Assembly: GCA_910580185.1 (NCBI GenBank)
Contig: CAJTWC010000002.1
Coordinates: 126,888 to 158,887, forward strand
DNA: 32,000 nt
Source of the DNA: an uncultured Bacilli bacterium
GTDB lineage: Bacteria > Bacillota_I > Bacilli_A > RF39 > UBA660
Direction of reading: 5' to 3'
The translations under genes were made by a program, and so were the position numbers. This document shows positions 404 through 25,120 of the stretch, one piece after another (position 1 is the first letter of the stretch; the number at the start of each line of letters is the position of its first letter). The notes beneath the pieces were generated by a model. The model was not told where the DNA came from and did no database searches. It saw nothing but the letters and a program-made list of their open reading frames with translations.

Positions 404-934
404 ATGAAGTACAACATTCGTGGTGAAAAAGTAGAAATAACATCTGCTATAAGATCTTATATTGAGGAGAAAATAGGAAAGCTAGATAAGTATTTCGATG
501 ATGCATCAGATATAACTGCAAGTGTGGTAATAAAGGTTCGCGGAAATGAACAAAAAATAGAGATAACAGTACCAGCTATGCGTTATACTTTAAGAAGTGA
601 AGAAGCTCATTCTGATTTATATGCTGCAATTGACCTTACGGTAGATAAATTAGAAAGACAAATAAGAAAAAACAAGACTAAGATCAATTCTAAAATTAAA
701 CATAATATGATTCAAAACTTTGAAGTTACTTTAGAAGATGAATATGAAAACGATGATTCTATAGTATTAAAAAGAAAAAAAGTTGATATGAAGCCAATGG
801 ATGAAGAAGAAGCAATTCTTCAAATGGAAATGTTAGGGCACTCATTCTTTGTTTTTAAAAACGTAGATACTGATTCAATTTGCGTTTTATATATAAGAAA
901 AGATGGAAACTATGGAATTATAGAAACAAAATAG
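404..934 (+). CDS. hpf: Ribosome hibernation promoting factor, long form (YvyD/HPF)
   Basis: 176 aa with an N-terminal S30AE-type domain (MKYNIRGEKVEITSAIRSYIEEK) and the long-HPF C-terminal dimerisation domain (EEAILQMEMLGHSFFVFKN). AGGAGG at 389-394. Sits upstream of secA, as in Bacillus. Confidence 0.9.
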   Translation: MKYNIRGEKVEITSAIRSYIEEKIGKLDKYFDDASDITASVVIKVRGNEQKIEITVPAMRYTLRSEEAHSDLYAAIDLTVDKLERQIRKNKTKINSKIKHNMIQNFEVTLEDEYENDDSIVLKRKKVDMKPMDEEEAILQMEMLGHSFFVFKNVDTDSICVLYIRKDGNYGIIETK

Positions 935-947
935 TAATAAACTTAAT

Positions 948-986
948 GGAAAGTAATTAAATCTCTTTAATTATTTTCTTTTTTTT
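948..986 (+). terminator. Intrinsic terminator after hpf
   Basis: GGAAAGTAATTAAA / TTTAATTATTTTC stem (one G:T pair), loop TCTC, followed by a T8 run. Confidence 0.75.
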
Positions 987-1018
987 GCTACAATATTCTT
1001 TAAGGAGATGATTCAAAA

Positions 1019-3517
1019 ATGCTAGGTTTTTTAAAGAAATTATTTGATCACGGAGAAATAGAATTAAAAAAATTTAGATTAATAGCAAATGAAGTATTTG
1101 CATTAGAAGATAAATATTCAAAAATGACAGATAAAGGTTTACAAAGCTGTACGAAAAAATTAAAGAAAAGATTAGAAAATGGAGAAACATTGGAAGAATT
1201 AATTCCAGATGCTTTTGCGGTAGTTAGGGAAGCTGCATATAGAGTAATTGGTGAAAAGCCTTTTTATACACAAGTATTAGGAGCCCTTTCAATTCATTTT
1301 GGTAATATATCTGAAATGAAAACTGGAGAAGGTAAAACGCTTACTTGCGTTATGCCAGCTTATTTAAATGCATTAACCGGAAAAGGTGTTCACGTAGTAA
1401 CAGTAAATGAATACTTAGCAACTCGTGACGCAGAGTGGATGGGAAAAATTTATGCCTTTTTAGGAATGACGGTTGCTGTTAACTTAAGAGATATGTCGCC
1501 AAAAGAAAAGAAAGAAGCATATGAAGCTGACATTTTATATTCAACTAATAATGAATTAGGATTTGATTATTTAAGGGATAATATGGTTGTTAATGCTGAA
1601 AATAGAGTTCAAAGACCACTTCACTTTGCGATAATAGACGAAGTGGATTCAGTGTTAATAGATGAGGCAAGAACACCATTAATTATATCTGGTGGGGTTA
1701 TGAAGTCGGCTAACCTTTATAAAGACTCAGATAGATTTGTCAAGACATTAAAAGAAAATGAAGATTATACTATTGATGAAAAAACTAGAGATATAACTTT
1801 AACCGATCAAGGTACTTCTAAAGGAGAAAAACATTTTAGAATTGGAAACCTTTATGATATAGAACATTCTGCGCTAGTTCATCATATAAACCAAGCCTTA
1901 AAGGCTAATTATACAATGCATAATGATGTTGATTACGTAGTGCAAGAAGGAAGAATAGTAATAGTTGACCAATTTACTGGAAGACTTATGCCAGGTAGAG
2001 CATTTTCTGATGGACTCCATCAGGCTATAGAAGCAAAAGAAAATGTAGAGATAGAAGAAGAAACTAAAACCCTTGCAACAATTACATTCCAAAATTATTT
2101 TAGAATGTATGAAAAACTATCTGGTATGACTGGTACCGCTAAAACAGAAGAAGAAGAATTCAGAAATATTTATAATATGTTTGTTATAGAAATACCAACA
2201 AACTTACCAGTAATAAGAGAAGATGCTGCAGATTTAATATATTCGACTAAAGATGAAAAATATAAAGCAATAGTTGCTGAAATTAAAAGAAGGCACGAAA
2301 CAGGACAACCAGTATTAGTTGGTACTATAGCAATTGAAACAAGTGAGATAATATCTAATTTATTAAAAAAAGCTAAGGTAAAACATGAGATATTAAATGC
2401 TAAAAACCATGCTAGAGAAGCTGAAATAATAGCTAAAGCAGGTGAAAAAGACTCCGTTACAATAGCAACTAATATGGCAGGACGTGGTACTGATATTAAA
2501 CTTGGTGAAGGTGTAAAAGAACTTGGCGGACTTTGTGTAATAGGTACTGAAAGGCATGAATCAAGGCGTATTGATAATCAGCTTAGAGGTCGTTCTGGTC
2601 GTCAAGGAGATCCAGGGTTTAGCCAATTTTTTGTATCTTTTGAAGATGATTTAATGGTAAGATTTGGAACTGATAGATTTAAAGCTATACTTGAAATGGC
2701 TGGGTTAGATAGTGAAAGAAACATGAGAAGTAAAACAATCACGCGTTCTGTTGAAACTGCTCAAAAAAGAGTTGAAGGAAATAACTTTGATGCTCGTAAA
2801 CATTTATTACAGTATGATGATGTTATGGGAAAACATCGTGAAATAATGTATGCAAGAAGAAATGAAATCCTAGATAATGAAGATATTCATGAAACTGTTT
2901 TAAATACTATAAAAGAACATATAGAATCAGTAATAAGAAGACACGCAAATGAGCATGGTATTATTATAGAATCGGATTGTAATGAAATTATTGAATATGT
3001 AAATGAAAATCTATTAAACAAGTCAAATTTAAAATTATCAGAAATCTTAAATAAAGATATATTAGAAATAATAAATACTATTCAAAATAAAGTAATAAAA
3101 GAGTATGAAGATAAAATTAATGCTCTTCCAATAGAAATAAGAAACGATTTTGAAAAAGCTATAAGTCTACAAGTAATTGATAATTATTGGATGGAGCATA
3201 TTAACATAATGGATCATTTAAGAGAGGGTGTATCTTTAAGGGGATATGCTAACGAAGATCCGCTTCAAGCTTACATAAGAGAAGGCTTTGAAATGTTTGA
3301 CAATATGCTTGATAGAATAAGTAAGGATATTACTTTATATTTATTAAAAGCCGAAGTAAGACAAAACTTAGAAGCAAAGGAAGTAAAAGGTAGTGCTAAT
3401 TCAGGTTCTGAAAAAGTATCAAAGTCAAGAACTGTTAAGAAAGATAAGAAAATTGGGCGCAATTCAAAGTGCCCTTGCGGCTCGGGCCTTAAGTATAAAC
3501 AATGCTGTGGTAGATAG
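1019..3517 (+). CDS. secA: Preprotein translocase ATPase SecA
   Basis: 832 aa with the Walker A-like MKTGEGKTL, DEAD-like IIDEVDSVLIDEARTPLIISG and TNMAGRGTDIKLG motifs, plus the C-terminal zinc-binding SEC-C tail CPCGSGLKYKQCCGR. Confidence 0.98.
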   Translation: MLGFLKKLFDHGEIELKKFRLIANEVFALEDKYSKMTDKGLQSCTKKLKKRLENGETLEELIPDAFAVVREAAYRVIGEKPFYTQVLGALSIHFGNISEMKTGEGKTLTCVMPAYLNALTGKGVHVVTVNEYLATRDAEWMGKIYAFLGMTVAVNLRDMSPKEKKEAYEADILYSTNNELGFDYLRDNMVVNAENRVQRPLHFAIIDEVDSVLIDEARTPLIISGGVMKSANLYKDSDRFVKTLKENEDYTIDEKTRDITLTDQGTSKGEKHFRIGNLYDIEHSALVHHINQALKANYTMHNDVDYVVQEGRIVIVDQFTGRLMPGRAFSDGLHQAIEAKENVEIEEETKTLATITFQNYFRMYEKLSGMTGTAKTEEEEFRNIYNMFVIEIPTNLPVIREDAADLIYSTKDEKYKAIVAEIKRRHETGQPVLVGTIAIETSEIISNLLKKAKVKHEILNAKNHAREAEIIAKAGEKDSVTIATNMAGRGTDIKLGEGVKELGGLCVIGTERHESRRIDNQLRGRSGRQGDPGFSQFFVSFEDDLMVRFGTDRFKAILEMAGLDSERNMRSKTITRSVETAQKRVEGNNFDARKHLLQYDDVMGKHREIMYARRNEILDNEDIHETVLNTIKEHIESVIRRHANEHGIIIESDCNEIIEYVNENLLNKSNLKLSEILNKDILEIINTIQNKVIKEYEDKINALPIEIRNDFEKAISLQVIDNYWMEHINIMDHLREGVSLRGYANEDPLQAYIREGFEMFDNMLDRISKDITLYLLKAEVRQNLEAKEVKGSANSGSEKVSKSRTVKKDKKIGRNSKCPCGSGLKYKQCCGR

Positions 3518-3598
3518 TCTCATTTACCCTTATAAATAAAGGGTTTACGGGATTTTTCTTTATTATAATTTTTAGGTAATTTTGTATCCAAAAAGGCG

Positions 3599-3613
3599 TT
3601 TAGATAAGTTTTT
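3599..3613 (+). repeat. Left copy of 15-nt direct repeat TTTAGATAAGTTTTT flanking the two-gene cassette
   Basis: Exact 15-mer found again at 4815..4829. Confidence 0.7.
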
Positions 3614-3671
3614 TTAGCTCAAATGAGCCTTAAAATGGAGTGTTATGGTATAATTAAAAAGGAGTGACAAT

Positions 3672-4247
3672 ATGAAAGAAATTTTAAAAGAAATAACAAC
3701 TTCGGATTGGATTCAAATAATCATTGCATTTATAACATTCTTAGGTATTATTGTATCTATTGTTATTACAGTGGTAACAATTAGGAAAAATAGTAAAATA
3801 ATAAAAGAATCAAATAGAGCACAAATTATATTTTATATCGATTACAACCCTGCTTGTGATATGTATTTTTTAATTATAAAAAACTTCGGAAAAAGTATAG
3901 GAAAATTATTAAAACTGCAGATAACTCCAAAATTAGATTGGCAGAAGACAAAATTTAAACAAGATATGGTTCCTTTAACTGAAGCAACTGATATTTTATT
4001 AGCACCTAAACAAAAAGTAAGTTCTTGGTTTGATTTCAAGAAATATCCAGACAAGGTATTTGATGTCATAATAGAATATGAAACATTGAATGAAGTATAT
4101 AAAGATAATTATAAAATTGATTTAAATTATATAAGTAATATTGACTGGCTCACACCTTATGCCTTAGATGATTACAGTAAGGATAATAAAGCTGTATTAT
4201 ATAAAATAAATAATAGTATACGAGATTTGACAGATAAATTTAGATAG
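3672..4247 (+). CDS. Hypothetical single-pass membrane protein (N-terminal TM helix, unknown C-terminal domain)
   Basis: 191-aa ORF with GGAG RBS at 3660-3663 and a hydrophobic stretch WIQIIIAFITFLGIIVSIVITVVTI. I recognise no family motif. Confidence 0.7.
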   Translation: MKEILKEITTSDWIQIIIAFITFLGIIVSIVITVVTIRKNSKIIKESNRAQIIFYIDYNPACDMYFLIIKNFGKSIGKLLKLQITPKLDWQKTKFKQDMVPLTEATDILLAPKQKVSSWFDFKKYPDKVFDVIIEYETLNEVYKDNYKIDLNYISNIDWLTPYALDDYSKDNKAVLYKINNSIRDLTDKFR

Positions 4248-4262
4248 TTAGGAGTTGAAAAT

Positions 4263-4805
4263 ATGAATAAAGATTTAATAATTGAAACTGAAAGATTAAT
4301 ACTAAGACAATATAAATTGGAAGATGTTAATGATATTGTTGAAGGATTAAATAATTTAAATGTAACTAAATGGTTACAAGGAGCTCCATATCCATATACT
4401 GCAGAAGATGCATTACATTTTATAAATAAATCACTAGATAATAATTTATATAATTTTGCTATTGTTTTGAAAAGCGAAAATAAAGTAATAGGTGGAACTC
4501 AATTAACTAATATAGATTTGCACAACGGAACAGCCGGAGGTGGAATTTGGATTAGTGAAAAGTATTGGGGAAGAGGATATGGTTCAGAAGCATTTGGAGC
4601 TAGGATCAAATATGCATTTGAAGTTTTAGGATTAAGAAGATTAGAAAATGGTTATTTTAAAGAAAATGAAAAATCGCATAAAATGCAACTAAGATTTGGT
4701 TATAAAGATGAAGGCATTAGAAGACAAAAATTTGTATCAAGGGGATCTGGAAAAATTGAAGATGAGTATATTACGGGATTATTAAAAGATGAATGGATAA
4801 AATAA
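4263..4805 (+). CDS. GNAT family N-acetyltransferase (RimJ/RimL-like)
   Basis: 180 aa with the N-terminal IETERLILRQYKLEDVNDI typical of the RimJ/RimL-type GNAT subfamily, and an acetyl-CoA loop-like WGRGYGSEA. Starts 16 nt after the preceding stop; RBS GGAG at 4251-4254. Confidence 0.85.
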   Translation: MNKDLIIETERLILRQYKLEDVNDIVEGLNNLNVTKWLQGAPYPYTAEDALHFINKSLDNNLYNFAIVLKSENKVIGGTQLTNIDLHNGTAGGGIWISEKYWGRGYGSEAFGARIKYAFEVLGLRRLENGYFKENEKSHKMQLRFGYKDEGIRRQKFVSRGSGKIEDEYITGLLKDEWIK

Positions 4806-4814
4806 ATAGATTTT

Positions 4815-4838
4815 TTTAGATAAGTTTTTAGATAAGTT
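4815..4838 (+). repeat. Right copy of TTTAGATAAGTTTTT plus an overlapping partial tandem copy
   Basis: 4815..4829 is identical to 3599..3613. TTTAGATAAGTT recurs at 4827..4838 (12-nt period). Confidence 0.7.
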
Positions 4839-4937
4839 GTACGAAAAAACTTACAATAATTGAATAAAAAATTATAAATTTGAAATAAAAAATACCGATT
4901 TAAAAGGAAAAAATTACTCGATTGTTTTAATATTTTA

Positions 4938-4982
4938 CCTTGTGGCTCGGGCCTTAAGTATAAACAATGCTGTGGAAAGTAA
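4938..4982 (+). pseudogene. Displaced copy of the secA 3' tail (PCGSGLKYKQCCGK*), not part of an ORF
   Basis: 40 of 45 nt identical to secA 3473..3517 by hand alignment, including a 32-nt perfect run. It has its own TAA stop. The frame is closed upstream by TGA at 4881 with no ATG between. Confidence 0.8.
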
Positions 4983-5131
4983 CAAAAAATAAGGGTAAAA
5001 TCAAAATAATAATTGATAATTTGTTCGAGTTTTATAACTTGTCTACAAAATATTAAAAATATATAGTAAAATAAAGGTGTGAACAAGAAATAATGTGTTG
5101 ACACCTTTTAAATTTAAAAAGGAGGTTTTTA

Positions 5132-5554
5132 ATGGAAGAAAAAAATAATATAGTAATATATCAATTAAATGATGGTAAGACAAAAATAGATGTAAAACTT
5201 GAGGATGAAACGGTATGGTTATAGCAATAGCAAATGGCTGAATTATTTTCTACATCTAGAACTAATATTATTGAACATATAAATAATATTTATGCTGAAG
5301 AAGAACTTGATAAGAATTCAACATGTCAAAATTTCCGACAAGTTCGAAAAGAAGATAATAGAACAGTAAATAGAGAAATTCCATATTATAATCTAGATAT
5401 GATTATCTCCTTAGGCTATAGAATAAGATCTAAAGTTGCTACAAATTTTAGAAGATGGGCAACGGAAAGATTAAAGGAATATATGATTAAAGGTTTCACT
5501 ATGGATGATGAAAGACTTAAAGGTAATGGCGCGGGCATTGTCTTTAGTAGATAA
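5132..5554 (+). pseudogene. RhuM-family virulence-associated protein, decayed (two in-frame TAG stops and C-terminal truncation)
   Basis: ATG 5132 after AAGGAGG gives MEEKNNIVIYQLNDGKTKIDVKLEDETVWL, then TAG (5222), CAA, TAG (5228), CAA, then the track ORF 5234..5554 (MAELF...YYNLDMIISLGYRIRSKVATNFRRWATERLKEY) in the same frame. This matches my memory of the RhuM N-terminal half. Total length is about 140 aa, against roughly 300+ aa as I recall intact RhuM proteins. Confidence 0.75.
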
Positions 5555-5656
5555 AACATTTATAGTAAAGCTAATACCAATAATACTGATACTAAATGAA
5601 ATATAGATAATACTATAAATACTAATAATGTTAATAATATAGGAGTATTTATTTCA

Positions 5657-5698
5657 TACGATTCAGGTCTTAAATATTAAAAATGCTGTGGAAAATAA
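5657..5698 (+). repeat. Third, degenerate copy of the secA 3' tail (YDSGLKY*KCCGK*)
   Basis: TAC GAT TCA GGT CTT AAA TAT TAA AAA TGC TGT GGA AAA TAA. About 32 of 42 nt match copy 2. Followed by a hairpin plus T-run at 5680..5713. Confidence 0.6.
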
Positions 5699-5744
5699 TC
5701 CCAGCATTTTTTTATATTTTGACATTTTATTAGTATATGATTTG

Positions 5745-5753
5745 TGTTATAAT
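5745..5753 (+). promoter_or_regulatory. Extended -10 element (TGTTATAAT) upstream of prfB
   Basis: Matches TGnTATAAT, 18 nt upstream of the prfB ATG. TTGACA at 5719-5724 is 23 nt away, too far to serve as a standard -35. Confidence 0.45.
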
Positions 5754-5770
5754 TAAAAATAGGTGATACT

Positions 5771-6866
5771 ATGTTAGAATTAAGAGAATATATTATCGAA
5801 GTAGATAACCTTAGTGACAGATTTAATACTGTATGGAGGGGACTTTGACGCAGAAAAATTAACCAAAGATATAAAAGATATAGAAGTTAAAATGTCAGCC
5901 TCCGATTTTTGGAATGATCAAGAAAATGCAAATGAAGTATTAAATGATTTAAAATCTAAAAAAGCTATGTTAGAGCCTGTTATGGGTATGAAAAATAACA
6001 TTGATGGTTTAAAAACATATATAGAGTTAATGCAAAATGGTATAGATGATGAGTTAGGAGATTTTGAAGATTTATTATCGAAAACAAAAAAGGATATGGA
6101 GTCATTAGAAACCCTTGCTTATTTAAACAAAGAGTTTGATGCTAATAATACAATATTTGAAATACATGCAGGAGCAGGTGGAACCGAAAGCTGTGATTGG
6201 GCAGATATGTTATCTAGAATGTATACAAAATACTTTTCCAAAAAAGGATATTCATATGAAATTTTGGATGAAACACCTGGTGATGAGGTAGGAATAAAAA
6301 CTATAGTTTATCTAGTAAAAGGCAGTTATGCTTATGGGTATCTAAAAAATGAAAAGGGTGTTCACAGATTAGTTAGATTATCTCCTTTTGACTCTAATAA
6401 CAGAAGACATACTTCTTTTGCAGCAGTGGATGTTACACCAGAATTTGATAATGATGCTAACGTAGAAATAAAAGATAATGATGTAAGAATAGATGTATAT
6501 CGTAGTAGTGGTGCTGGTGGCCAAGGGGTAAACACAACGGACAGCGCTGTTAGAGTTACTCATATACCAACTGGAATAGTTGTTACTTGTCAAAATGAAA
6601 GAAGTCAAATAAAAAACAAAGAAACTGCATTAAAAGTTTTAAAAAGTAAACTTTATCAAATGAAACTTAGGGAAAATAAAGAGCAAATAGATTCTATGAA
6701 AAAAGATCATAATGAAATAGAATTTGGTTCACAAATAAGAAGTTATGTAATGCACCCATATTCAATGGTAAAAGACCATAGAACTGGTTATGAAACTTCT
6801 AATGTTAGTAAAGTAATGGATGGATATATAGATGAATTCATAGAAAAGAGTTTGAAAGGAGAATAA
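5771..6866 (+). CDS. prfB: Peptide chain release factor 2, expressed via +1 programmed frameshift
   Basis: Frame 0 from ATG 5771 gives MLELREYIIEVDNLSDRFNTVWRGL, then TGA at 5846. The +1 frame (track ORF 5814..6866) continues DAEKL... and contains SPF (RLSPFDS) and GGQ (SGAGGQGVNTTDSAVR). Confidence 0.95.
5835..5849 (+). promoter_or_regulatory. RF2 autoregulatory frameshift site: internal SD-like GGAGGGG, then CTT TGA C
   Basis: GGAGGGG at 5835-5841, CTT 5843-5845, TGA 5846-5848, C 5849. This is the canonical CUU UGA C slippery/stop context. Confidence 0.9.
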
Positions 6867-17996: not shown

Positions 17997-19949
17997 ATGT
18001 TTGATTTAGTATCAAAATTTAAGCCATCAGGTGATCAACCAGAGGCTATAAAAGAGCTTTCTGATGGAATTAAAAATGGCAAGAAATATCAAGTTTTACT
18101 AGGGGCTACGGGCACTGGAAAGACTTTTACAATTGCTAACGTAATCAAAGAAGTTAATAAACCAACACTAGTACTTGCACATAACAAAACGCTTGCAGGT
18201 CAGTTGTATTCTGAGTTAAAGGAAATCTTTCCAAATAATCAGGTTTGCTATTTTGTTTCTTATTATGATTATTATCAACCAGAAGCTTACGTTCCATCTA
18301 GTGATACATATATAGAAAAAGACTCTTCAATAAATGATGAGATAGATGAGTTAAGACATTATGCTACATCATCACTTATAAATGCTAAGGACGTAATAGT
18401 AGTAGCATCAGTTTCATGTATATATGGTATTGGTGATAAAGAAGAGTATGAAAATCACATGCTTACTTTAAAAGTTGGCCAAGAAATAGACAGAAACGAA
18501 GTTTTGTCTAAACTAGTTGATATGATGTACGAAAGAAATAACATTGATTTAGTACGTGGTACCTTTAGAGCTAAAGGCGATGTTATCGAAGTTATTCCAG
18601 TTTATGAAAAAAGTCACGGAATTAGAATTGAACTATTTGGTGATGAAATAGATAGAATATCTGAGTTTGATGTATTAACAGGAGTAGTTGTTAGTGATAA
18701 AAAGTTTATATCAATAATGCCAGCTTCTCACTTCGTAACAAGTGAAGAAAAATTAAAGAAAGCGATTGTTAATATAAGAGAAGAATTAGATGATAGATTA
18801 AAATATTTTAAAGAAAATGGTAAATTATTAGAGGCTGAACGCCTGGAACAGAGGTGCAAGTATGACTTAGAAATGCTTGCAGAAACAGGTTTTTGCTCAG
18901 GAGTAGAAAATTACTCAAGACATCTTGCTTTAAAACAAGAAGGAGAAACACCAACTTGTTTATTAGACTTCTTTCCTGATGACTTTTTAATGGTAATAGA
19001 TGAATCTCATGTTACGCTTCCGCAGGTTAAAGCAATGTATAATGGAGACAGAGCAAGAAAACGGATGCTTGTTGATTATGGGTTTAGACTTCCTTCTGCA
19101 CTAGATAATAGGCCACTTAAGTATGAAGAGTTTGAAGAAAAAATAAATCAAATAATATATGTATCTGCAACGCCCGGAGATGAGGAATTACAAAAAGTTA
19201 ATAACGAGGTGGTAGAGCAAATAATAAGACCAACAGGACTCCTTGATCCAGTAATAGAGGTAAGAAAATCTAATAATCAAATTGATGATTTAATAGAAGA
19301 AATACAAAAACAAATTGATAAAGGCGATAGAACTCTTGTTACAACACTTACAATTCGTATGGCCGAAGAGCTTACTTCTTACTTAAAAAATTTAAACATA
19401 AAGGTTGCTTACCTTCATAGTGAAGTAAAGACATTAGAAAGACTTAAGATAATACATGATTTAAGGGAAGGTAAGTATGACGTTTTAGTTGGTATAAACC
19501 TTTTAAGAGAAGGACTAGATATTCCAGAAGTTAGCTTAGTTGCAATACTTGATGCTGATAAACAAGGATTTTTAAGAAGCCATCGTAGTCTTATTCAAAC
19601 AATTGGTAGGTGTGCAAGAAACGCTGGTGGTAGAGTAATTATGTATGGTGATATTATAAGTGATGCAATGAAAACCGCGATAGATGAAACGGCAAGACGT
19701 CGTGCTATCCAAATTAAATATAATGAAGATCATGGTATAGTTCCACAAACAATTAAGAAGAAGATAATGGACGTAGTAAGCGTAAGTGATGATTCATCTA
19801 AAGATAAAAAGCATCATAAACGTGAGGAAATCCATAATGATAAGTTAATTAAGCAATTAGAAGAAGAAATGAGGAAGGCTGCTAAAGACCTAGACTTCGA
19901 ACGTGCTATGGAACTTCGCGATATTATATTTGAGATGAAAGTTAATTAA
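17997..19949 (+). CDS. uvrB: Excinuclease ABC subunit B
   Basis: Walker [10 protein letters not shown], beta-hairpin region [14 protein letters not shown] box (VIDESHVT), helicase motif [11 protein letters not shown], and C-terminal UVR domain ([16 protein letters not shown]). Confidence 0.98.
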
Positions 19950-20118: not shown

Positions 20119-20946
20119 ATGACAAATTTAACAAAATATAATGAAAGCATTTTCGAAAGTATTAAACATATTGATGAATATGGTAATGAATACTGGAAGG
20201 CAAGAGAACTTCAAAAAGTGTTAGAATATAAAGAATGGAGAAAGTTTGAAGGGGTAATTGAAAAAGCAAAACAATCTTGTGATAACAGTGGGTTTACACA
20301 AAGTTTCCATTTTGTCGAGGCCGACAAAATGTCAAGTATAGGTAAAGGTAGTAAAAGAAAGACAGTTGATTATAAGCTATCAAGATATGCTTGCTATCTT
20401 ATTGTACAAAATGGAGATCCTAGAAAAGAAGTAATCGCACTTGGCCAAACCTATTTTGCAGTGCAAACAAGAAAACAAGAGTTAACTGAATTAGAATATG
20501 AAAACTTAAGTGAGGATGAAAAAAGATTATACCAAAGAAGTAGGGTTAGAAAAGGAAACTATACTTTAAATATTACAGCTAGGAAAGCAGGAGTTAAAAG
20601 CTTTGATAAGTTTCATAATGCAGGTTATAAAGGATTATATAATGGAGAAACAGCTGATGATATTGCTAAAAGAAAAAATTTAAGATATAGAGAAGAAATT
20701 TTAGATAATATGGGAAGTGATGAGTTAGCAGCTAATCTCTTTAGAATATCTTTAGCTAACCAAAAATTAAATAATGAAAAAATAAAAGGTGAAAAGAACT
20801 CTTGTGATGCTCACTTTGAAGTTGGAAAGGCAGTAAGGGATACAATTGATAAAGTTGGTGGAACATTACCGGAAAGTTTACCTACTCCAGAAAAATCGAT
20901 AAAAGAGTTAGTAAAAGAAGAAAAAACTAAATTAATAGAAAAATAA
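20119..20946 (+). CDS. dinD: DNA damage-inducible protein D family
   Basis: 275 aa. WKARELQKVLEYKEWRKFEGVIEKAKQSC, LSRYACYLIVQNGDPRKEVIALGQTYFAVQTRKQE, DKFHNAGYKGLYNGETADDIAKRK and GGTLPESLPTPEKSIKEL match my memory of DinD-family proteins in Firmicutes and E. coli DinD. Confidence 0.8.
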   Translation: MTNLTKYNESIFESIKHIDEYGNEYWKARELQKVLEYKEWRKFEGVIEKAKQSCDNSGFTQSFHFVEADKMSSIGKGSKRKTVDYKLSRYACYLIVQNGDPRKEVIALGQTYFAVQTRKQELTELEYENLSEDEKRLYQRSRVRKGNYTLNITARKAGVKSFDKFHNAGYKGLYNGETADDIAKRKNLRYREEILDNMGSDELAANLFRISLANQKLNNEKIKGEKNSCDAHFEVGKAVRDTIDKVGGTLPESLPTPEKSIKELVKEEKTKLIEK

Positions 20947-21333: not shown

Positions 21334-21882
21334 ATGAAGTTATATCATATTGATAGATTTGGAACCATAAATGAAGGACAAACTCTTAATTTGCAAAAAA
21401 AACTATATTTTGATAAAAAAGAACAAAACCAATGTTTAAATATGATACTTCCATATTATAAGGGAGAAGTTTCACATCATGGGATTCATTATTTGTTAAA
21501 TAATGAATTGGCCATTAATAATGTTATGTCACTGAGTTGTGTAATGGATATTGTATTTGAATATGAAAGAATGTTAAATTACAAAGATAAATTATCTCGT
21601 TATCAGTCATTTTTTGCTTTTGATAGTACAGGAGTTAAAGAATTTATAAAAGAAAATAATTTATCTGAAAACTTTTATAAAATATATGAAGTTAGTTCTG
21701 ATTATTATGAAAAATTTAATATGCGTTTAATATCTGGAACTGCGCATTTTAATATTGCTGCAATGGCAAAACTTTATTGGGAAAATGGTAAAGATCCATA
21801 TAATAGACCTGTTCTAAACGAATATTTATTAAAATTCCCAGTTAGGGTTATAAAAGAAGTTAAATTAAATGAAATTAATTAA
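21334..21882 (+). CDS. Hypothetical protein, 182 aa, unknown function
   Basis: GGAGG RBS at 21322-21326. Soluble. Motifs YHIDR, EYERMLNYKDKLSRYQSFFAF and IYEVSSDYYEKFNM. I vaguely recall a Firmicute DUF family with an SR..s.fa plus YEV pattern but cannot verify it. Confidence 0.7.
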   Translation: MKLYHIDRFGTINEGQTLNLQKKLYFDKKEQNQCLNMILPYYKGEVSHHGIHYLLNNELAINNVMSLSCVMDIVFEYERMLNYKDKLSRYQSFFAFDSTGVKEFIKENNLSENFYKIYEVSSDYYEKFNMRLISGTAHFNIAAMAKLYWENGKDPYNRPVLNEYLLKFPVRVIKEVKLNEIN

Positions 21883-22306: not shown

Positions 22307-25120
22307 ATGGATAAAATAATAGTAAAAGGTGCTAGAGAAAATAATTTAAAGAACGTTGATATAGAAATACCAAAAGATAAGTTAACGGTAATGACGGGTG
22401 TATCAGGTAGTGGTAAGTCAAGTTTAGCTTTTGATACTATATATGCAGAAGGGCAAAGAAGATATGTTGAAAGTTTATCTGCATATGCAAGACAATTTTT
22501 AGGTGGTACTTCAAAACCAGACGTAGACTCGATAGAAGGCCTTTCTCCATCTATTTCGATAGATCAGAAAACAACTAACAATAACCCAAGGTCAACGGTT
22601 GGAACTGTAACTGAAATATATGATTATTTTAGACTTTTATTTGCAAGAATTGGTGTACCATATTGTCCTAATCATAATATTCCAATATCTAGTCAATCTA
22701 TTGAAGAGATGACTACCCAGATAATGAATGAAGAAGATGGAACTAAATTAATTATTATGTCACCAGTAGCGTATGGTGAAAAAGGTACTTTTAAAGATTT
22801 ACTTGAAACCCTAAGAAAAGATGGTTATGTAAGAGTTAAAATAGATGATGAAACAAGGGATTTAAGTGAAGAAATTGTTTTAGATAAAAATAAAAAACAT
22901 AACATATTGGTTGTTATAGATAGAATAGTAAAAAAAGATGAGTCAAGAAGTAGAATATATGAAGCGATAGAACTAGCTTGTAAATTATCTAAAGGAAAAG
23001 CCATTGTAGAAATACCTGGTAGGGAAGAAATTGTAATGAGTGAGTCTTTTGCGTGCCCTCATTGTGATTTTTCGCTAGAGGAACTAGAACCTAGGATGTT
23101 TAGTTTTAACGCTCCTTATGGATCATGCCCAGATTGTAAGGGATTAGGTTTTAAACAAAAGATAAGTGAGCAGCTAATAATTCCAGATAAAGAAAAAACT
23201 CTTGCAAGAGGAGGTATTGAACCACTTGCAGGGATGGATGACCAAAACATTTATATCAAAAAGTTAGAAATCGTTTGTGATAAATTTAACATCGATATGA
23301 ATAAAAAGATGAAAGATTTCACTAAAAAAGAATTAGATATTATTCTAAGAGGGACGAAAGAGCCTATCGAGTTTAAGTTTAAAACTAGAAGCGGTAACGA
23401 AATGAATAGCTTTGAACCTTATGAAGGTATATTAAACAACTTAGAAAGAAGATATTTTGAAACTAATAGTGAATTTATTAGAGAGTGGCTTGGAAAATAC
23501 ATGGTAGAACTTACTTGCCCTACTTGTAATGGTAAGAGACTTAAACAAAGTGTTTTATCAGTTCTAATAAACAAGAAAAACATAATTGATTTAACCGATA
23601 TGAACATTGATAAGTTATACGACTTCTTTGATAAATTAAAACTAAGTAAAGAAAAAGAAGAAATAGCAAGGCTTCTTATAAAAGAGATAAAATCTAGATT
23701 AGAATTTTTACATAACGTTGGATTAGGATATCTTACTTTATCTCGTAGTGCTGGAACTTTATCAGGTGGGGAAGCACAAAGAATAAGACTTGCAACCCAA
23801 ATAGGATCACAGTTAACTGGCGTATTATACGTACTTGATGAACCAAGTATTGGGCTTCACCAAAGGGATAACCAAAGACTAATTGACTCTTTACTAAAGA
23901 TGAGAGATTTAGGCAATACTTTAGTTGTAGTAGAACACGATACTGATACCATGCTTCAAGCTGATTACCTAGTAGACGTAGGGCCAGGAGCGGGAGATCA
24001 TGGTGGAGAGATAGTAGCATGTGGAACGCCCGAAGAAGTTATGCAAAATACCAATAGTTTAACAGGGGATTATCTAAGTGGTAGAAAAGAAATAGGTGTT
24101 CCTAAAAAACGTAGAAAAGGTAATGGTAACTTTATTGAAATTAAAGGAGCTAAGGAAAATAATCTTAAAAACATTAACGTTAAGTTTCCTTTAGGTAAGT
24201 TAGTTTTAGTAACAGGTGTATCTGGTTCTGGTAAAAGTAGTTTAATAAATCAAATATTATACAAAGCTTTAGCACTAAACGTATATGGTTCTAAAGTTAT
24301 TCCAGGTAAACATAGAAGCATAAAAGGATTAGAAAATGTAGATAAAGTAATAGATATAACGCAAGATCCAATCGGAAGAACACCTCGTAGTAATCCAGCT
24401 ACTTATGTTGGTGTATTTGATGATATAAGAGATGTTTTTGCAAATACTAAGGAAGCTAAAATAAGAGGTTATGAAAAAGGTAGATTCTCATTTAACGTAA
24501 AAGGCGGAAGATGCGAAGCCTGCTGGGGAGACGGCGTTAAGAAGATTTCAATGAACTTCTTACCAGACGTATATGTTCCTTGTGAGGTGTGTGGTGGAAC
24601 AAGATTTAACAAGGAAACCCTAGAAGTTAAATATAAGGGTAAAACCATTTATGATGTTTTACAAATGCGCGTAGAAGAAGCTTTAGAATTCTTTGAAAAC
24701 CATCCTAAGATAAAAAGAAAATTACAAGTATTAATGGACGTTGGATTAGGTTATATAAAGCTTGGCCAAAGTGCACCAACATTATCAGGTGGTGAAGCAT
24801 CACGTGTAAAACTTGCTAAAGAACTACAAAAGAAACCAACTGGTAAAAGTGTGTTTATATTAGATGAACCAACTACTGGTCTTCATAGTCATGATATTAA
24901 AAGATTACTTGTAATACTAAACAGAATAGTTGATAATGGAGATACCGTAATCGTAATCGAACACAACCTTGACGTTATAAAAGTTGCAGACCACATAATC
25001 GACCTTGGACCAGAAGGTGGAGATGGTGGTGGAACCATAGTTTGTGAGGGAACACCAGAAAAAGTAGCTAAATGCTCTGAATCATATACGGGTCAATATT
25101 TAAAAAAAATATTAAAATAA
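22307..25120 (+). CDS. uvrA: Excinuclease ABC subunit A
   Basis: 937 aa with two ABC modules (GVSGSGKSS twice; LSGGEAQR and LSGGEASR signatures) and zinc-finger cysteines (CPHCDF...CPDCKG; CEACWGDG...CEVCGG). Confidence 0.98.
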   Translation: MDKIIVKGARENNLKNVDIEIPKDKLTVMTGVSGSGKSSLAFDTIYAEGQRRYVESLSAYARQFLGGTSKPDVDSIEGLSPSISIDQKTTNNNPRSTVGTVTEIYDYFRLLFARIGVPYCPNHNIPISSQSIEEMTTQIMNEEDGTKLIIMSPVAYGEKGTFKDLLETLRKDGYVRVKIDDETRDLSEEIVLDKNKKHNILVVIDRIVKKDESRSRIYEAIELACKLSKGKAIVEIPGREEIVMSESFACPHCDFSLEELEPRMFSFNAPYGSCPDCKGLGFKQKISEQLIIPDKEKTLARGGIEPLAGMDDQNIYIKKLEIVCDKFNIDMNKKMKDFTKKELDIILRGTKEPIEFKFKTRSGNEMNSFEPYEGILNNLERRYFETNSEFIREWLGKYMVELTCPTCNGKRLKQSVLSVLINKKNIIDLTDMNIDKLYDFFDKLKLSKEKEEIARLLIKEIKSRLEFLHNVGLGYLTLSRSAGTLSGGEAQRIRLATQIGSQLTGVLYVLDEPSIGLHQRDNQRLIDSLLKMRDLGNTLVVVEHDTDTMLQADYLVDVGPGAGDHGGEIVACGTPEEVMQNTNSLTGDYLSGRKEIGVPKKRRKGNGNFIEIKGAKENNLKNINVKFPLGKLVLVTGVSGSGKSSLINQILYKALALNVYGSKVIPGKHRSIKGLENVDKVIDITQDPIGRTPRSNPATYVGVFDDIRDVFANTKEAKIRGYEKGRFSFNVKGGRCEACWGDGVKKISMNFLPDVYVPCEVCGGTRFNKETLEVKYKGKTIYDVLQMRVEEALEFFENHPKIKRKLQVLMDVGLGYIKLGQSAPTLSGGEASRVKLAKELQKKPTGKSVFILDEPTTGLHSHDIKRLLVILNRIVDNGDTVIVIEHNLDVIKVADHIIDLGPEGGDGGGTIVCEGTPEKVAKCSESYTGQYLKKILK

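What the first reader, a model, noticed from the sequence alone, without database searches (positions are those of the whole stretch)
3473..5698. The secA 3' tail occurs three times: likely footprints of serial insertions between secA and prfB
The last 15 codons of secA (3473..3517, PCGSGLKYKQCCGR*, the zinc-binding SEC-C tail) recur at 4938..4982. By my hand alignment 40 of 45 nt are identical, including the 32-nt perfect run GGCTCGGGCCTTAAGTATAAACAATGCTGTGG. That copy has its own TAA stop but no usable start, because its frame is closed by TGA at 4881. A third, more decayed copy lies at 5657..5698. About 32 of 42 nt match copy 2, and it has an internal TAA. A hairpin plus T-run (5680..5713) follows it, directly upstream of the prfB promoter. 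secA and prfB are normally adjacent in Firmicutes. The simplest reading is that the prfB-proximal copy is the ancestral secA end with its terminator. Two DNA segments then integrated successively into the secA 3' end. Each brought a surrogate tail that kept SecA intact and pushed the older tail downstream. Segment 1 (3518..4937) carries a membrane protein plus GNAT pair. Segment 2 (4983..5656) carries only a decayed rhuM. No integrase remains. I do not know of a described attachment site in the secA tail.
Basis: partly seen in the sequence, partly recalled or inferred. Interest (0 to 1): 0.7.

Follow-up and report, generated by a model that had tools for sequence, protein, structure and literature searches.

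The report
Mobile-element landing site in secA's tail
The last codons of the essential gene secA are a landing site for integrating mobile DNA in uncultured gut bacteria, and the three tail copies in this window mark the edges of two small integrase-less gene cassettes stacked between secA and prfB.

Summary
There are three direct copies of the secA SEC-C tail: 3473-3517, 4938-4982 (40/45 identical) and 5654-5698 (32/42). None is expected by chance. Copies 2 and 3 cannot be translated.

- In most other Bacillota sampled, secA and prfB lie 80-650 bp apart.
- In this clade (Ca. Aphodocola / CAG:594 relatives) the interval holds 1-4 or more unrelated gene segments, each bounded by a tail copy.
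- Strains with identical SecA protein differ by precise tail-bounded insertions of 1,348 and about 2,461 bp.
- The tail is the most divergent 42 nt of secA.
- All six integrase lineages examined sit directly after the secA tail, five of them 184-233 bp past the stop. One element is 100% identical across hosts of different species, with the junction at ...CCN|TGTGG.

New here: segment 1 belongs to an abundant family of integrase-less cassettes (tail-to-tail intervals median about 1.4 kb). Their arms are conserved, with a TAGATAAGTT tandem about 84 nt after one tail and about 102 nt before the next. Segment 2 is a decayed rhuM element whose left arm matches that of an integrase-bearing relative.

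This is the known mechanism of tyrosine-integrase integration with tandem accretion of integrase-less remnants (CIMEs). The target and the cassette-like form were not found described.

The parts
1019..3517 (+). secA (832 aa), the target gene. Its last ~13 codons are supplied by the inserted DNA.
   Evidence: Pfam hits to SecA_DEAD, SecA_PP_bind, SecA_SW and SEC-C. The final 42 nt are the most divergent 42-nt window of the whole gene against L002 and L007.
3473..3517 (+). Tail copy 1: the live SEC-C tail and attL-type junction. Host sequence runs up to ...CCTTGC; the element-derived or shared core starts at GGCTCGGG (3479).
   Evidence: The junction position is inferred from an identical element found in divergent hosts.
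3518..3620 (+). Left (P') arm of cassette 1. It carries an element-supplied hairpin plus U-run that ends secA (3512-3559) and a TTAGATAAGTT motif at 3600-3610, 84 nt after the secA stop.
   Evidence: Fold of -13.5 kcal/mol, z = -3.0. The arm aligns at 76% mean identity with the arms of five cassettes carrying other cargo (A1). The spacing equals the metagenome median of 84 nt.
3672..4247 (+). Cassette 1 cargo: 191-aa ORF with a hydrophobic N-terminus, function unknown.
   Evidence: ORF list. No significant Pfam, PADLOC or NCBIfam family.
4263..4805 (+). Cassette 1 cargo: GNAT N-acetyltransferase (180 aa).
   Evidence: PF13302, 3.5e-24. All NCBIfam equivalogs score below their cut-offs.
4806..4937 (+). 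Right (P) arm of cassette 1, with tandem TAGATAAGTT-TT-TAGATAAGTT at 4817-4838, 100 nt before tail copy 2.
   Evidence: (D6, D9). Alignment A2 has 71% mean identity. The 2-nt-spacer tandem lies before a tail in 51 of 51 tail-linked metagenome cases, median 103 nt.
4938..4982 (+). Tail copy 2: the displaced former secA end (…CCGK*). It is the attR of cassette 1 and the attL of segment 2, and is untranslatable.
   Evidence: Its right flank (to 5007) is 80% identical to the secA tail plus downstream of L007, where an integrase-bearing element sits.
4983..5131 (+). Left arm of segment 2, with TTGTTCGAG / TTGTCTACA motifs at about 5020-5047.
   Evidence: Flank comparison with L007_a and L013_b, which share TTGTC(C/T)ACA / TGTGGACA motifs.
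5132..5554 (+). rhuM pseudogene: two fragments, 5132-5224 and 5234-5554, truncated at about one third of full length.
   Evidence: PF13310, 6.4e-30, covering profile positions 1-70 of 252. PADLOC candidate defence family PDC-S05. An intact 339-aa homologue lies in the equivalent cassette of L013. 82% nt identity to L133 and L197.
5555..5653 (+). Right arm of segment 2: AT-rich AATACTATAAATACT…ATAATATAGGAG repeats.
   Evidence: The same motif block precedes tails in L013 (16215-16255), L002 (7290-7315) and L175. In L175 it follows an excisionase-like ORF plus integrase (xis-int) pair.
5654..5698 (+). Tail copy 3: the oldest, decayed secA end, with an internal TAA.
   Evidence: Homology with L002 resumes here (window 5670 aligns to L002 10914; 86% over 488 nt).
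5679..5711 (+). Ancestral secA terminator hairpin plus T-run, built partly from tail copy 3. It now insulates prfB from the array.
   Evidence: -14.5 kcal/mol, z = -5.4. The L002 orthologue folds at -17.3 kcal/mol with a compensatory G:C to A:U change.
5771..6866 (+). prfB (RF2), with the usual +1 frameshift site CTT TGA C at 5843-5849. It is the right-hand boundary of the hotspot.
   Evidence: Sequence read. PCRF and RF-1 domains.

Best explanation
The 3' end of secA is the chromosomal attachment site (attB) of a family of tyrosine integrases carried by conjugative and smaller integrative elements in gut Bacillota. The site covers the codons for ...C|GSG(K/L)KYK(Q/N)CCG(K/R)*.

Integration recombines an element-borne copy of the tail with the chromosomal one, just after the second Cys codon. 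SecA therefore keeps a complete zinc-binding tail, with two Cys from the host side and two from the element. It also receives a new stop codon and terminator. The previous tail is pushed downstream as a dead copy.

Repeated events stack segments between secA and prfB. In this window the likely history is as follows.
1. The ancestral tail with its terminator (copy 3) lay directly upstream of prfB.
2. A rhuM-carrying element integrated and later lost its integrase and most of rhuM (segment 2).
3. A 1.4-kb integrase-less cassette of the TAGATAAGTT-arm family (segment 1: small ORF plus GNAT) entered at the live tail. It was probably mobilised in trans by an integrase from another element.

Shown here: the repeats, the hotspot polymorphism, the integrase association, the junction position and the conserved arm geometry. 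Inferred: the order of events, that TAGATAAGTT is an arm-type integrase or excision-factor binding site, and mobilisation in trans.
For: **Repeats and untranslatability.**

**Ancestral adjacency.** secA to prfB is 80-650 bp in about 45 of 55 other Bacillota loci. It is 2300 bp here and 2390-6210 bp in relatives.

**Different cargo in close relatives, each piece tail-bounded.**
- L002 (SecA 96%) carries NUDIX x2 | ABC transporter | AAA_22 protein | stub, with five tail copies.
- The CAG:594 strains, the P0093 lineage and L026 show the same pattern.

**Precise insertion polymorphisms among strains with identical SecA protein.** L010 equals L008 plus 1,348 bp. L013 equals L010 plus about 2,461 bp. 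Both insertions are bounded by tails. Homology between L011 and L008 ends exactly at the secA stop.

**Tail swapping.** The tail shows 10-21% mismatches against 0.6-1.3% for the rest of secA in nine of ten pairs of CAG:594 strains (the tenth pair shares an identical tail). It is the most divergent 42-nt window in all three pairs tested by sliding window.

**Integrases.**
- Intact 422-439-aa tyrosine integrases with an arm-binding domain start 184-233 bp after the secA stop. This holds in L011 and L226 and in every place returned for three clusters: P0221 (8 places), P0210 and P0144 (5 places each; in one place of each the gene upstream of the integrase is cut by the contig end and was not identified).
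- The P0144 element carries PrgI and a VirB4/TraG-like ATPase, so it is conjugative.
- One element is 100% identical over 2 kb in hosts whose secA 3' regions are only 36-74% identical. The junction is at CC[AT]|TGTGG. Clostridia-type hosts have the same junction.

**Cassette family**.
- In 120 metagenome loci fetched by the tandem motif, 82 carry tails: 154 on the motif's strand and 1 on the other.
- The 1-nt-spacer tandem lies 73-88 nt after a tail (41 cases). The 2-nt-spacer tandem lies a median 103 nt before a tail (51 cases). The two forms are never swapped.
- The 72 tail-to-tail intervals have a median of 1,426 bp.
- The longest ORF is co-oriented with secA in 71 of 72 intervals.
- Window geometry matches: 84 nt and 100 nt.

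**Arms.** They align at 76% and 71% mean identity across cassettes with unrelated cargo.

**Segment 2 links to integrase-bearing elements.**
Against: - No integrase lies in the 32-kb window, so nothing shows that these two segments can move now.
- No relative with an empty secA-prfB junction was found inside the clade. The insert-free state of this lineage is inferred from outgroups and from the conserved copy 3 plus terminator.
- No integrase-bearing element with TAGATAAGTT arms was identified, so the partner of cassette 1 is unknown and the motif's role is inferred.
- 38 of the 120 motif-fetched loci show no tail. Many are short contigs, but some may be unrelated matches.
- Nearly all comparison data are metagenome assemblies, where repeats can cause mis-joins.
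- No excision or integration was observed.
Confidence: 0.88

Rival explanations
1. Both segments are simply the in-situ wreckage of two full-size integrase-bearing elements. The small size and conserved ends of segment 1 are incidental, and integrase-less cassettes never move as units.
For: Segment 2 clearly is a wreck: a broken, truncated rhuM whose arms match those of integrase-bearing relatives. The CIME literature describes exactly such decay products (PMC5704250). Integrase fragments lie next to TAGATAAGTT motifs in several metagenome loci.
Against: Integrase-less cassettes show precise presence/absence among strains with identical SecA. Independent decay would have to give the same geometry in dozens of loci: motif at 73-88 nt after a tail in 41 cases, a median 103 nt before a tail in 51 cases, and 71 of 72 co-oriented. 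It would also have to leave about 75% conserved arms around unrelated cargo.
Confidence: 0.3
2. The cassettes are moved by a host-encoded recombinase (Xer-like or another chromosomal tyrosine recombinase) that recognises the tail sequence. This would resemble Xer-dependent modules. The ICE integrases merely share the site.
For: No integrase partner with TAGATAAGTT arms was found. The window has no element integrase.
Against: Every integrase lineage sampled at this site has an arm-binding N-terminal domain. Int-bearing elements carry their own repeated motifs in the equivalent arm positions: TGTTTGYA in L018, L175 and L002_a, and TTGTGTGCA in L011. That is the lambda-type architecture the cassettes mimic. 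The secA tail has no resemblance to dif that I could see; this was not formally tested.
Confidence: 0.08
3. The extra tails arose by local duplication or gene conversion of the secA end, with no mobile element involved.
For: Copies 1 and 2 share a perfect 32-nt run.
Against: The DNA between the copies is unrelated cargo that differs between close relatives. Integrases abut the site. An identical element is joined to divergent hosts at one fixed point.
Confidence: 0.02
4. Copies 2 and 3 are small expressed SEC-C-motif genes.
For: Copy 2 keeps an intact 15-codon reading frame with its own stop.
Against: There is no ATG/GTG/TTG in the 32 open codons upstream of copy 2. Copy 3 has an internal TAA and only 5 open codons. 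Equivalent copies in relatives carry stops or substitutions at Cys codons.
Confidence: 0.01
5. The arrangement is a metagenome assembly artefact caused by the 38-nt repeat.
For: Another genome assembled from a metagenome, with identical SecA, breaks its contig 132 bp after the secA stop.
Against: The same architecture recurs in hundreds of kilobases of independent assemblies from many studies. The geometry is consistent and the flanks are collinear at 98%. A 38-nt repeat is shorter than typical assembly k-mers or reads.
Confidence: 0.02

Closest known systems
CIMEs (cis-mobilizable elements) and tandem accretion at ICE/IME attachment sites, e.g. ICESt1/ICESt3-related elements at the 3' end of fda in Streptococcus thermophilus (Pavlovic 2004 and Bellanger 2011, as reviewed in PMC5704250)
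   Same: A tyrosine integrase targets the 3' end of a housekeeping gene. The element carries a copy of the gene end. Integrase-less segments remain flanked by attL and attR. New arrivals integrate next to old ones and form tandem arrays (for the definition; here).
   Different: The target is the secA zinc-finger tail, which none of the ICE/IME surveys held in the library mention (0 occurrences of secA). The integrase-less units are numerous and small (median interval about 1.4 kb). They share conserved arms with fixed motif spacing around unrelated cargo and are almost always co-oriented with the target gene. Cis-mobilisation was not tested.
dusA-specific integrase family (PMC4482086): a clade of integrases dedicated to one protein-coding gene
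   Same: An integrase clade is found at one site of one conserved protein-coding gene across many taxa, and the element restores the gene.
   Different: dusA elements insert at the 5' end; here it is the 3' end. The secA clade was sampled here in only six lineages, not surveyed systematically.
Tycheposons and the tRNA-anchored islands of Prochlorococcus (bioRxiv 10.1101/2020.12.28.424599)
   Same: Successive integrations at one site push older elements further in, leaving partial copies of the target and fragmented integrases. Cargo behaves as plug-in cassettes.
   Different: The target there is a tRNA gene, not a protein tail. Tycheposons carry their own recombinase and replication modules. 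The recombinase clade relationship was not tested.
Integron cassette arrays
   Same: Arrays of small, mostly single-gene units that are co-oriented and lack a recombinase, each ending in a recombination site.
   Different: There is no integron integrase. The site's integrases have an arm-binding domain and score 68 bits against the cut-off of 265 for TIGR02249. The recombination site is a copy of coding sequence with asymmetric lambda-type arms, not an attC hairpin. No attI/Pc platform is present.

Membership tests
Site-specific integrative element at the 3' end of a gene (tyrosine-integrase att system) | Inserted DNA is bounded by direct repeats that duplicate the 3' end of the target gene | tested here: met
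   Three copies in the window. The same pattern occurs in L002, L010, L013, L026 and L227-L236.
Site-specific integrative element at the 3' end of a gene (tyrosine-integrase att system) | The element-borne copy restores an intact target ORF | tested here: met
   Copy 1 encodes PCGSGLKYKQCCGR* with a SEC-C Pfam hit. Element-supplied tails in 10 junctions all keep the Cys ligands.
Site-specific integrative element at the 3' end of a gene (tyrosine-integrase att system) | A tyrosine integrase is encoded next to the att site in autonomous members | tested here: met
   L007, L011, L226 and the P0221, P0210 and P0144 clusters. The intact integrases start 184-233 bp after the secA stop.
Site-specific integrative element at the 3' end of a gene (tyrosine-integrase att system) | Presence/absence polymorphism precisely at the repeats in close relatives | tested here: met
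   L008 vs L010 vs L013, and L011 vs L008. For the window's own two segments no insert-free relative was found.
Site-specific integrative element at the 3' end of a gene (tyrosine-integrase att system) | Integrase present in the element itself (autonomy) | tested here: not met
   No integrase homologue by tblastn in the window. No Phage_integrase domain among the window ORFs scanned.
Site-specific integrative element at the 3' end of a gene (tyrosine-integrase att system) | Demonstrated excision and integration | not testable with these tools
   Needs read-level data or experiments.
CIME (cis-mobilizable element) | Retains attL and attR but lacks integration and transfer genes | tested here: met
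   Segment 1 (3518-4937) and segment 2 (4983-5653) are each tail-bounded and encode only a small ORF plus GNAT, or a rhuM pseudogene.
CIME (cis-mobilizable element) | Derived from, or sharing arms with, an autonomous ICE/IME | tested here: inconclusive
   Segment 2: the left arm is 80% identical to L007's attL arm, and the right arm shares its motif block with L175's xis-int element. Segment 1: no integrase-bearing element with TAGATAAGTT arms was found.
CIME (cis-mobilizable element) | Mobilised in cis or in trans by an accreted element's integrase | not testable with these tools
   Only indirect support, from precise cassette polymorphisms.
Integron | Integron-type integrase (IntI) with attI and Pc next to the array | tested here: not met
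   No integrase in the window. The site's integrases carry Arm-DNA-bind_4 and fall far below the TIGR02249 cut-off (68 vs 265 bits).
Integron | Cassettes end in attC imperfect palindromes | tested here: inconclusive
   The sites are direct copies of coding sequence with asymmetric arms. No inverted repeat spanning a tail appears among those listed. Single-strand folding of the tails was not tested specifically.
Tycheposon | Integration into a tRNA gene, leaving partial tRNAs | tested here: not met
   The target is the secA coding end.
Free-standing SEC-C-motif small protein genes | An open reading frame with a start codon covering the motif | tested here: not met
   No start codon for copy 2. 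Copy 3 has an internal stop.

The most novel reading that the evidence does not exclude
The secA tail works as an integron-like gene-capture platform built on lambda-type recombination. A large family of integrase-less, mostly one- or two-gene cassettes (0.7-3 kb) carries conserved P and P' arms, with TAGATA(A/C)GTT arm sites fixed at about +84 and about -102 nt from the core. On this reading the cassettes are actively inserted, excised and exchanged in trans by secA-specific integrases carried on ICEs and IMEs. That would build co-oriented arrays of up to five or more cassettes downstream of an essential gene in uncultured gut Bacilli and Clostridia.
Probability: 0.4. Interest if true: 0.75.

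Novelty: new variant of a known kind. Interest (0 to 1): 0.6.

Why it matters
- **A new target.** The finding adds an essential, universally conserved protein gene, and specifically its C-terminal zinc finger, to the list of integrase targets. One consequence is unusual: two of SecA's four zinc ligands are supplied by whichever mobile element arrived last.
- **A variable locus.** It identifies a fast-changing site in abundant but uncultured human and animal gut Bacillota (CAG:594 / Ca. Aphodocola and Clostridia-type hosts). Accessory genes accumulate there, including candidate phage-defence genes such as rhuM and WYL regulators, transporters and glycosidases.
- **A testable mobility model.** The small cassettes with conserved arms give a concrete case of non-autonomous cargo moved in trans by integrases of conjugative elements.
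- **Practical uses.** The 45-nt tail motif is a simple marker for finding island boundaries. It also explains recurrent contig breaks after secA in genomes assembled from metagenomes.

Tried and rejected
- **blastn of 3300-5900 against GenBank phages.** Only weak hits to the rhuM part, in unannotated fecal phage contigs. No element match.
- **IMG/VR scan with the L011 integrase.** No relatives, so there is no support for a prophage origin.
- **Genome-contig scan with SecA.** It served only to establish the outgroup secA-prfB adjacency and one more array, L026.
- **Search for an empty site inside the clade.** I used SecA clusters P0007, P0005, P0114, P0011 and P0093. None was found; every strain has at least one cassette or an integrase element.
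- **Simple terminator scan.** It found nothing. The hairpins have bulges and were confirmed by folding instead.
- **PADLOC and NCBIfam on the cassette 1 cargo.** No defence or specific functional assignment.
- **Literature searches for secA as an attB.** No relevant paper. The hits were incidental, such as an ICE 'between uvrB and secA' in group B Streptococcus and accessory SecA2 systems.
- **Integrase partner for the TAGATAAGTT arms.** Looked for among 120 metagenome loci and not found. Only fragments of L007-type integrases lie next to some motifs.
- **Shufflon or inversion switch for alternative SecA tails.** Considered and rejected, because all copies are direct repeats.

Full report
**1.

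The window contains one direct-repeat family with three members:
- 3473-3510, the reference copy;
- 4938-4975, 37/38 identical;
- 5654-5691, 28/38 identical.

Shuffles expect zero in both cases. Recounting gives 40/45 for copy 1 vs copy 2 and 32/42 for copy 2 vs copy 3. The frame of copy 2 is closed by TGA at 4881 and has no start codon in its 32 open codons. Copy 3 carries an internal TAA. In 2000 shuffles no 38-mer reached 28/38.

The hairpin after copy 3 (5679-5711) folds at -14.5 kcal/mol (z = -5.4). Its 5' arm is the tail's own AAAUGCUGUGG.

**2. The secA-prfB interval is a hotspot**

SecA homologues place the window in the Candidatus Aphodocola / 'Clostridium sp. CAG:594' group of uncultured gut Bacilli.

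In about 45 of about 55 other Bacillota loci where prfB was in reach, it begins 80-650 bp after secA. In this clade the gap is much larger and filled with unrelated genes:

| Locus (SecA identity to window) | Gap | Content |
|---|---|---|
| window | 2300 bp | small ORF + GNAT; rhuM pseudogene |
| L002 (96%) | 5252 bp | NUDIX x2, an ABC transporter, an AAA_22 protein |
| CAG:594 strains with one identical SecA protein | 2390, 3740 or 6210 bp | WYL + 424-aa pair; plus CutA1; plus His_Phos + intact RhuM |
| P0093 lineage | about 6.3 kb | array with a GH10 glycosidase; one variant has MCRA + TetR |

Each boundary between segments carries a copy of the secA tail.

L010 equals L008 plus a precise 1,348-bp insertion. 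L013 equals L010 plus about 2,461 bp. Both insertions are bounded by tail copies, and the flanks are 98% identical.

**3. The tail is swapped**

In nine of ten pairs of strains with identical SecA protein, the last 42 nt differ at 10-21% of positions, against 0.6-1.3% for the remaining 2.45 kb. The tenth pair, L010 and L013, shares an identical tail. For the window the figures are 26% (vs L002) and 31% (vs L007), against 10% and 7% for the gene body. In all three pairs tested by sliding window, the tail is the single most divergent 42-nt window of the gene. This is what is expected if each incoming element brings its own synonymous version of the tail.

**4. Integrases sit at the site**

Tyrosine integrases with an arm-binding N-domain were found directly after the secA tail in the following places:
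- L011, same SecA as the CAG:594 strains: an intact 439-aa integrase plus a replication-initiator-like gene. Homology to L008 stops exactly at the secA stop.
- L226, SecA 89% to the window: integrase 184 nt after the stop, then ParA, ParB, a SpaA adhesin, a sortase and a 2441-aa SNF2-type protein.
- L007, SecA 97%: a 361-aa ORF followed by an integrase split into two reading frames, about 1.3 kb after the stop.

Three further integrase clusters, 71-75% identical to L011's, were looked up. All 18 places returned have the integrase about 224-233 bp after the preceding gene. That gene is secA in 16 of them; in the other two it is cut by the contig end and was not identified. The hosts include Clostridia-type organisms with 916-937-aa SecA. 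One element carries PrgI and a VirB4/TraG-like ATPase, so it is conjugative.

The P0221 element is 100% identical over 2 kb in hosts whose secA 3' regions are only 36-74% identical. Host variation ends at ...CC[AT] and identity begins at TGTGGAAGTGG. Clostridia-type hosts have the same junction.

The crossover therefore lies at or just after the second Cys codon. The element supplies roughly G-S-G-K-K-Y-K-Q/N-C-C-G-K/R, the stop and a terminator. In the window the only core difference between copies 1 and 2 is that Cys codon's third base (TGC against TGT). The 32-nt perfect run starts right after it, which is consistent.

**5. What the two window segments are**

*Segment 1 (3518-4937).* Its ends are homologous to the ends of cassettes carrying quite different cargo:
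- The left arm aligns at 76% mean identity with five others, including the WYL cassette of CAG:594 and the AAA_22 cassette of L002 (A1).
- The right arm aligns at 71% mean identity (A2).

Both arms contain the motif TAGATAAGTT: one copy at 3600-3610, 84 nt after the stop, and a tandem at 4817-4838, 100 nt before copy 2.

Analysis of these loci gave:
- 82 loci carry tail copies: 154 on the motif's strand and 1 on the other.
- The 1-nt-spacer tandem lies 73-88 nt (median 84) after a tail in 41 cases.
- The 2-nt-spacer tandem lies a median 103 nt before a tail in 51 cases.
- The two forms are never interchanged.
- The 72 tail-to-tail intervals have a median of 1,426 bp (range 656-6,747).
- The longest ORF is co-oriented with the tail in 71 of 72 intervals.

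Segment 1 is therefore a typical member of an abundant family of small integrase-less cassettes with lambda-like arms.

Other elements at the site carry their own repeated motifs in the equivalent positions: TGTTTGYA in L018, L175 and L002_a; TTGTGTGCA in L011; TTGTCYACA in L007, L013 and window segment 2. That pattern is why I read these motifs as arm-type binding sites. It is an inference.

*Segment 2 (4983-5653).*
- Its left arm is 80% identical over 70 nt to L007's tail plus downstream, where the integrase-bearing element sits.
- Its right arm carries the AATACTATAAATACT…ATAATATAGGAG block. The same block precedes tails in L013, L002 and L175, and in L175 it follows an excisionase-like ORF plus integrase.
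- Its rhuM fragment is 82% identical at nucleotide level to copies in L133 and L197, and the intact 339-aa gene sits in the matching cassette of L013.

Segment 2 is a decayed relative of those elements.

*Copy 3.* Copy 3, its terminator and the prfB promoter are orthologous to L002 10914 onward (86% over 488 nt). The hairpin is kept by a compensatory G:C to A:U change. It also suggests why the 3' half of copy 3 is better preserved than the 5' half.

**6. Mechanism and its limits**

The best-supported reading is classical tyrosine-integrase attP x attB recombination at the 3' end of a gene, with tandem accretion and integrase-less CIME-like units. This matches what is described for streptococcal ICEs and IMEs (PMC5704250). 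[quoted passage not shown]

- Shown: repeats, polymorphism, integrase adjacency, junction position and arm geometry.
- Inferred: the order of insertion (segment 2 first, then segment 1), the motif's function, and trans-mobilisation.
- Not shown: any movement.
- Not found: an integrase in the window, an empty site within the clade, or the integrase partner of the TAGATAAGTT arms.

**7. Comparison and novelty**

The kind of system is known. I found no paper in the held library that names secA as an attachment site. The main ICE/IME surveys it holds do not mention secA at all.

The closest published analogue in type is the dusA-specific integrase family (PMC4482086). That family is also a clade of integrases dedicated to one protein-coding gene, but at its 5' end.

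The cassette family goes beyond the usual picture of CIMEs as occasional wreckage. Its members are small, numerous and co-oriented, and they share conserved arms with fixed spacing around unrelated cargo. In outcome it resembles an integron array, but it is not an integron: there is no IntI-type integrase, and the recombination sites are copies of coding sequence. I therefore rate it a new variant of a known kind.

**8. Verdict**

Interest is moderate to fairly high (0.6). The mechanism is unsurprising to a specialist. The target, its breadth across gut Bacillota and the cassette-like architecture are worth a dedicated study.

Noticed in passing
L007 14285-14300; also L111 and L160 (metagenome loci, oriented as): The L007-type integrase is split at the same place in three independent assemblies. 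Frame 0 ends ...SFELKKTI*, and the -1 frame continues KKNDIGH... into the catalytic domain. The shift site is GAATTAAAAAAAAC, an A8 run that forms an A_AAA_AAA slippery heptamer; A9 would be in frame. This is a candidate programmed -1 frameshift, transcriptional slippage or phase-variable tract in a tyrosine integrase. It would yield a 170-aa arm-binding-only product plus full-length integrase.
   Followed up: partly
L132, L160, L162, L169 (N-terminal fragments); L111, L126, L128 (C-terminal fragments): 145-aa N-terminal integrase fragments end 28 nt before a 1-nt-spacer TAGATAAGTT tandem. About 46-aa C-terminal integrase fragments begin right after a 2-nt-spacer tandem. It looks as if motif-bounded cargo had replaced the middle of an integrase gene. 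This is unexplained.
   Followed up: no
window 3643-3680 and 5742-5779: The promoter and ribosome-binding region upstream of the cassette 1 ORF is 76% identical over 38 nt to the prfB promoter and ribosome-binding region (repeat D2). It could be chance in AT-rich consensus elements or a copied expression signal.
   Followed up: no
window 20119-20946 and 21334-21882: A Bro-N domain ORF and a 182-aa ORF lie between uvrB (17997-19949) and uvrA (22307-25120). CAG:594 relatives have a different pair after uvrB, an HTH protein and a DUF4190 protein. This may be a second small variable spot.
   Followed up: no
L001 10330-10461 (GCA_948686965.1): Another genome assembled from a metagenome, with a 100% identical SecA, ends its contig 132 bp after the secA stop, inside the left arm of cassette 1. 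Many SecA-bearing contigs of this clade are only 3-10 kb long. This suggests that strain heterogeneity at the hotspot breaks assemblies.
   Followed up: partly
L243 3230-3308: In one conjugative-element-bearing host the secA tail is frame-shifted. The called SecA (937 aa) reads through into element DNA and loses the SEC-C hit. This is either an assembly error or a case where integration damaged the tail.
   Followed up: no
window 5843-5849: prfB has the canonical programmed +1 frameshift site (CTT TGA C, preceded by AGGGGA). ORF callers therefore start it at 5814 instead of 5771.
   Followed up: yes
L002 7319-7363 and 10749-10793: Two decayed tail copies in L002 share the same right flank (AAATTAGTAGGTTTTATAAGGG), which resembles L011's integrase-element left arm. 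The last L002 'segment' is only about 100 bp long. This implies near-complete deletion of an element between two att sites.
   Followed up: partly
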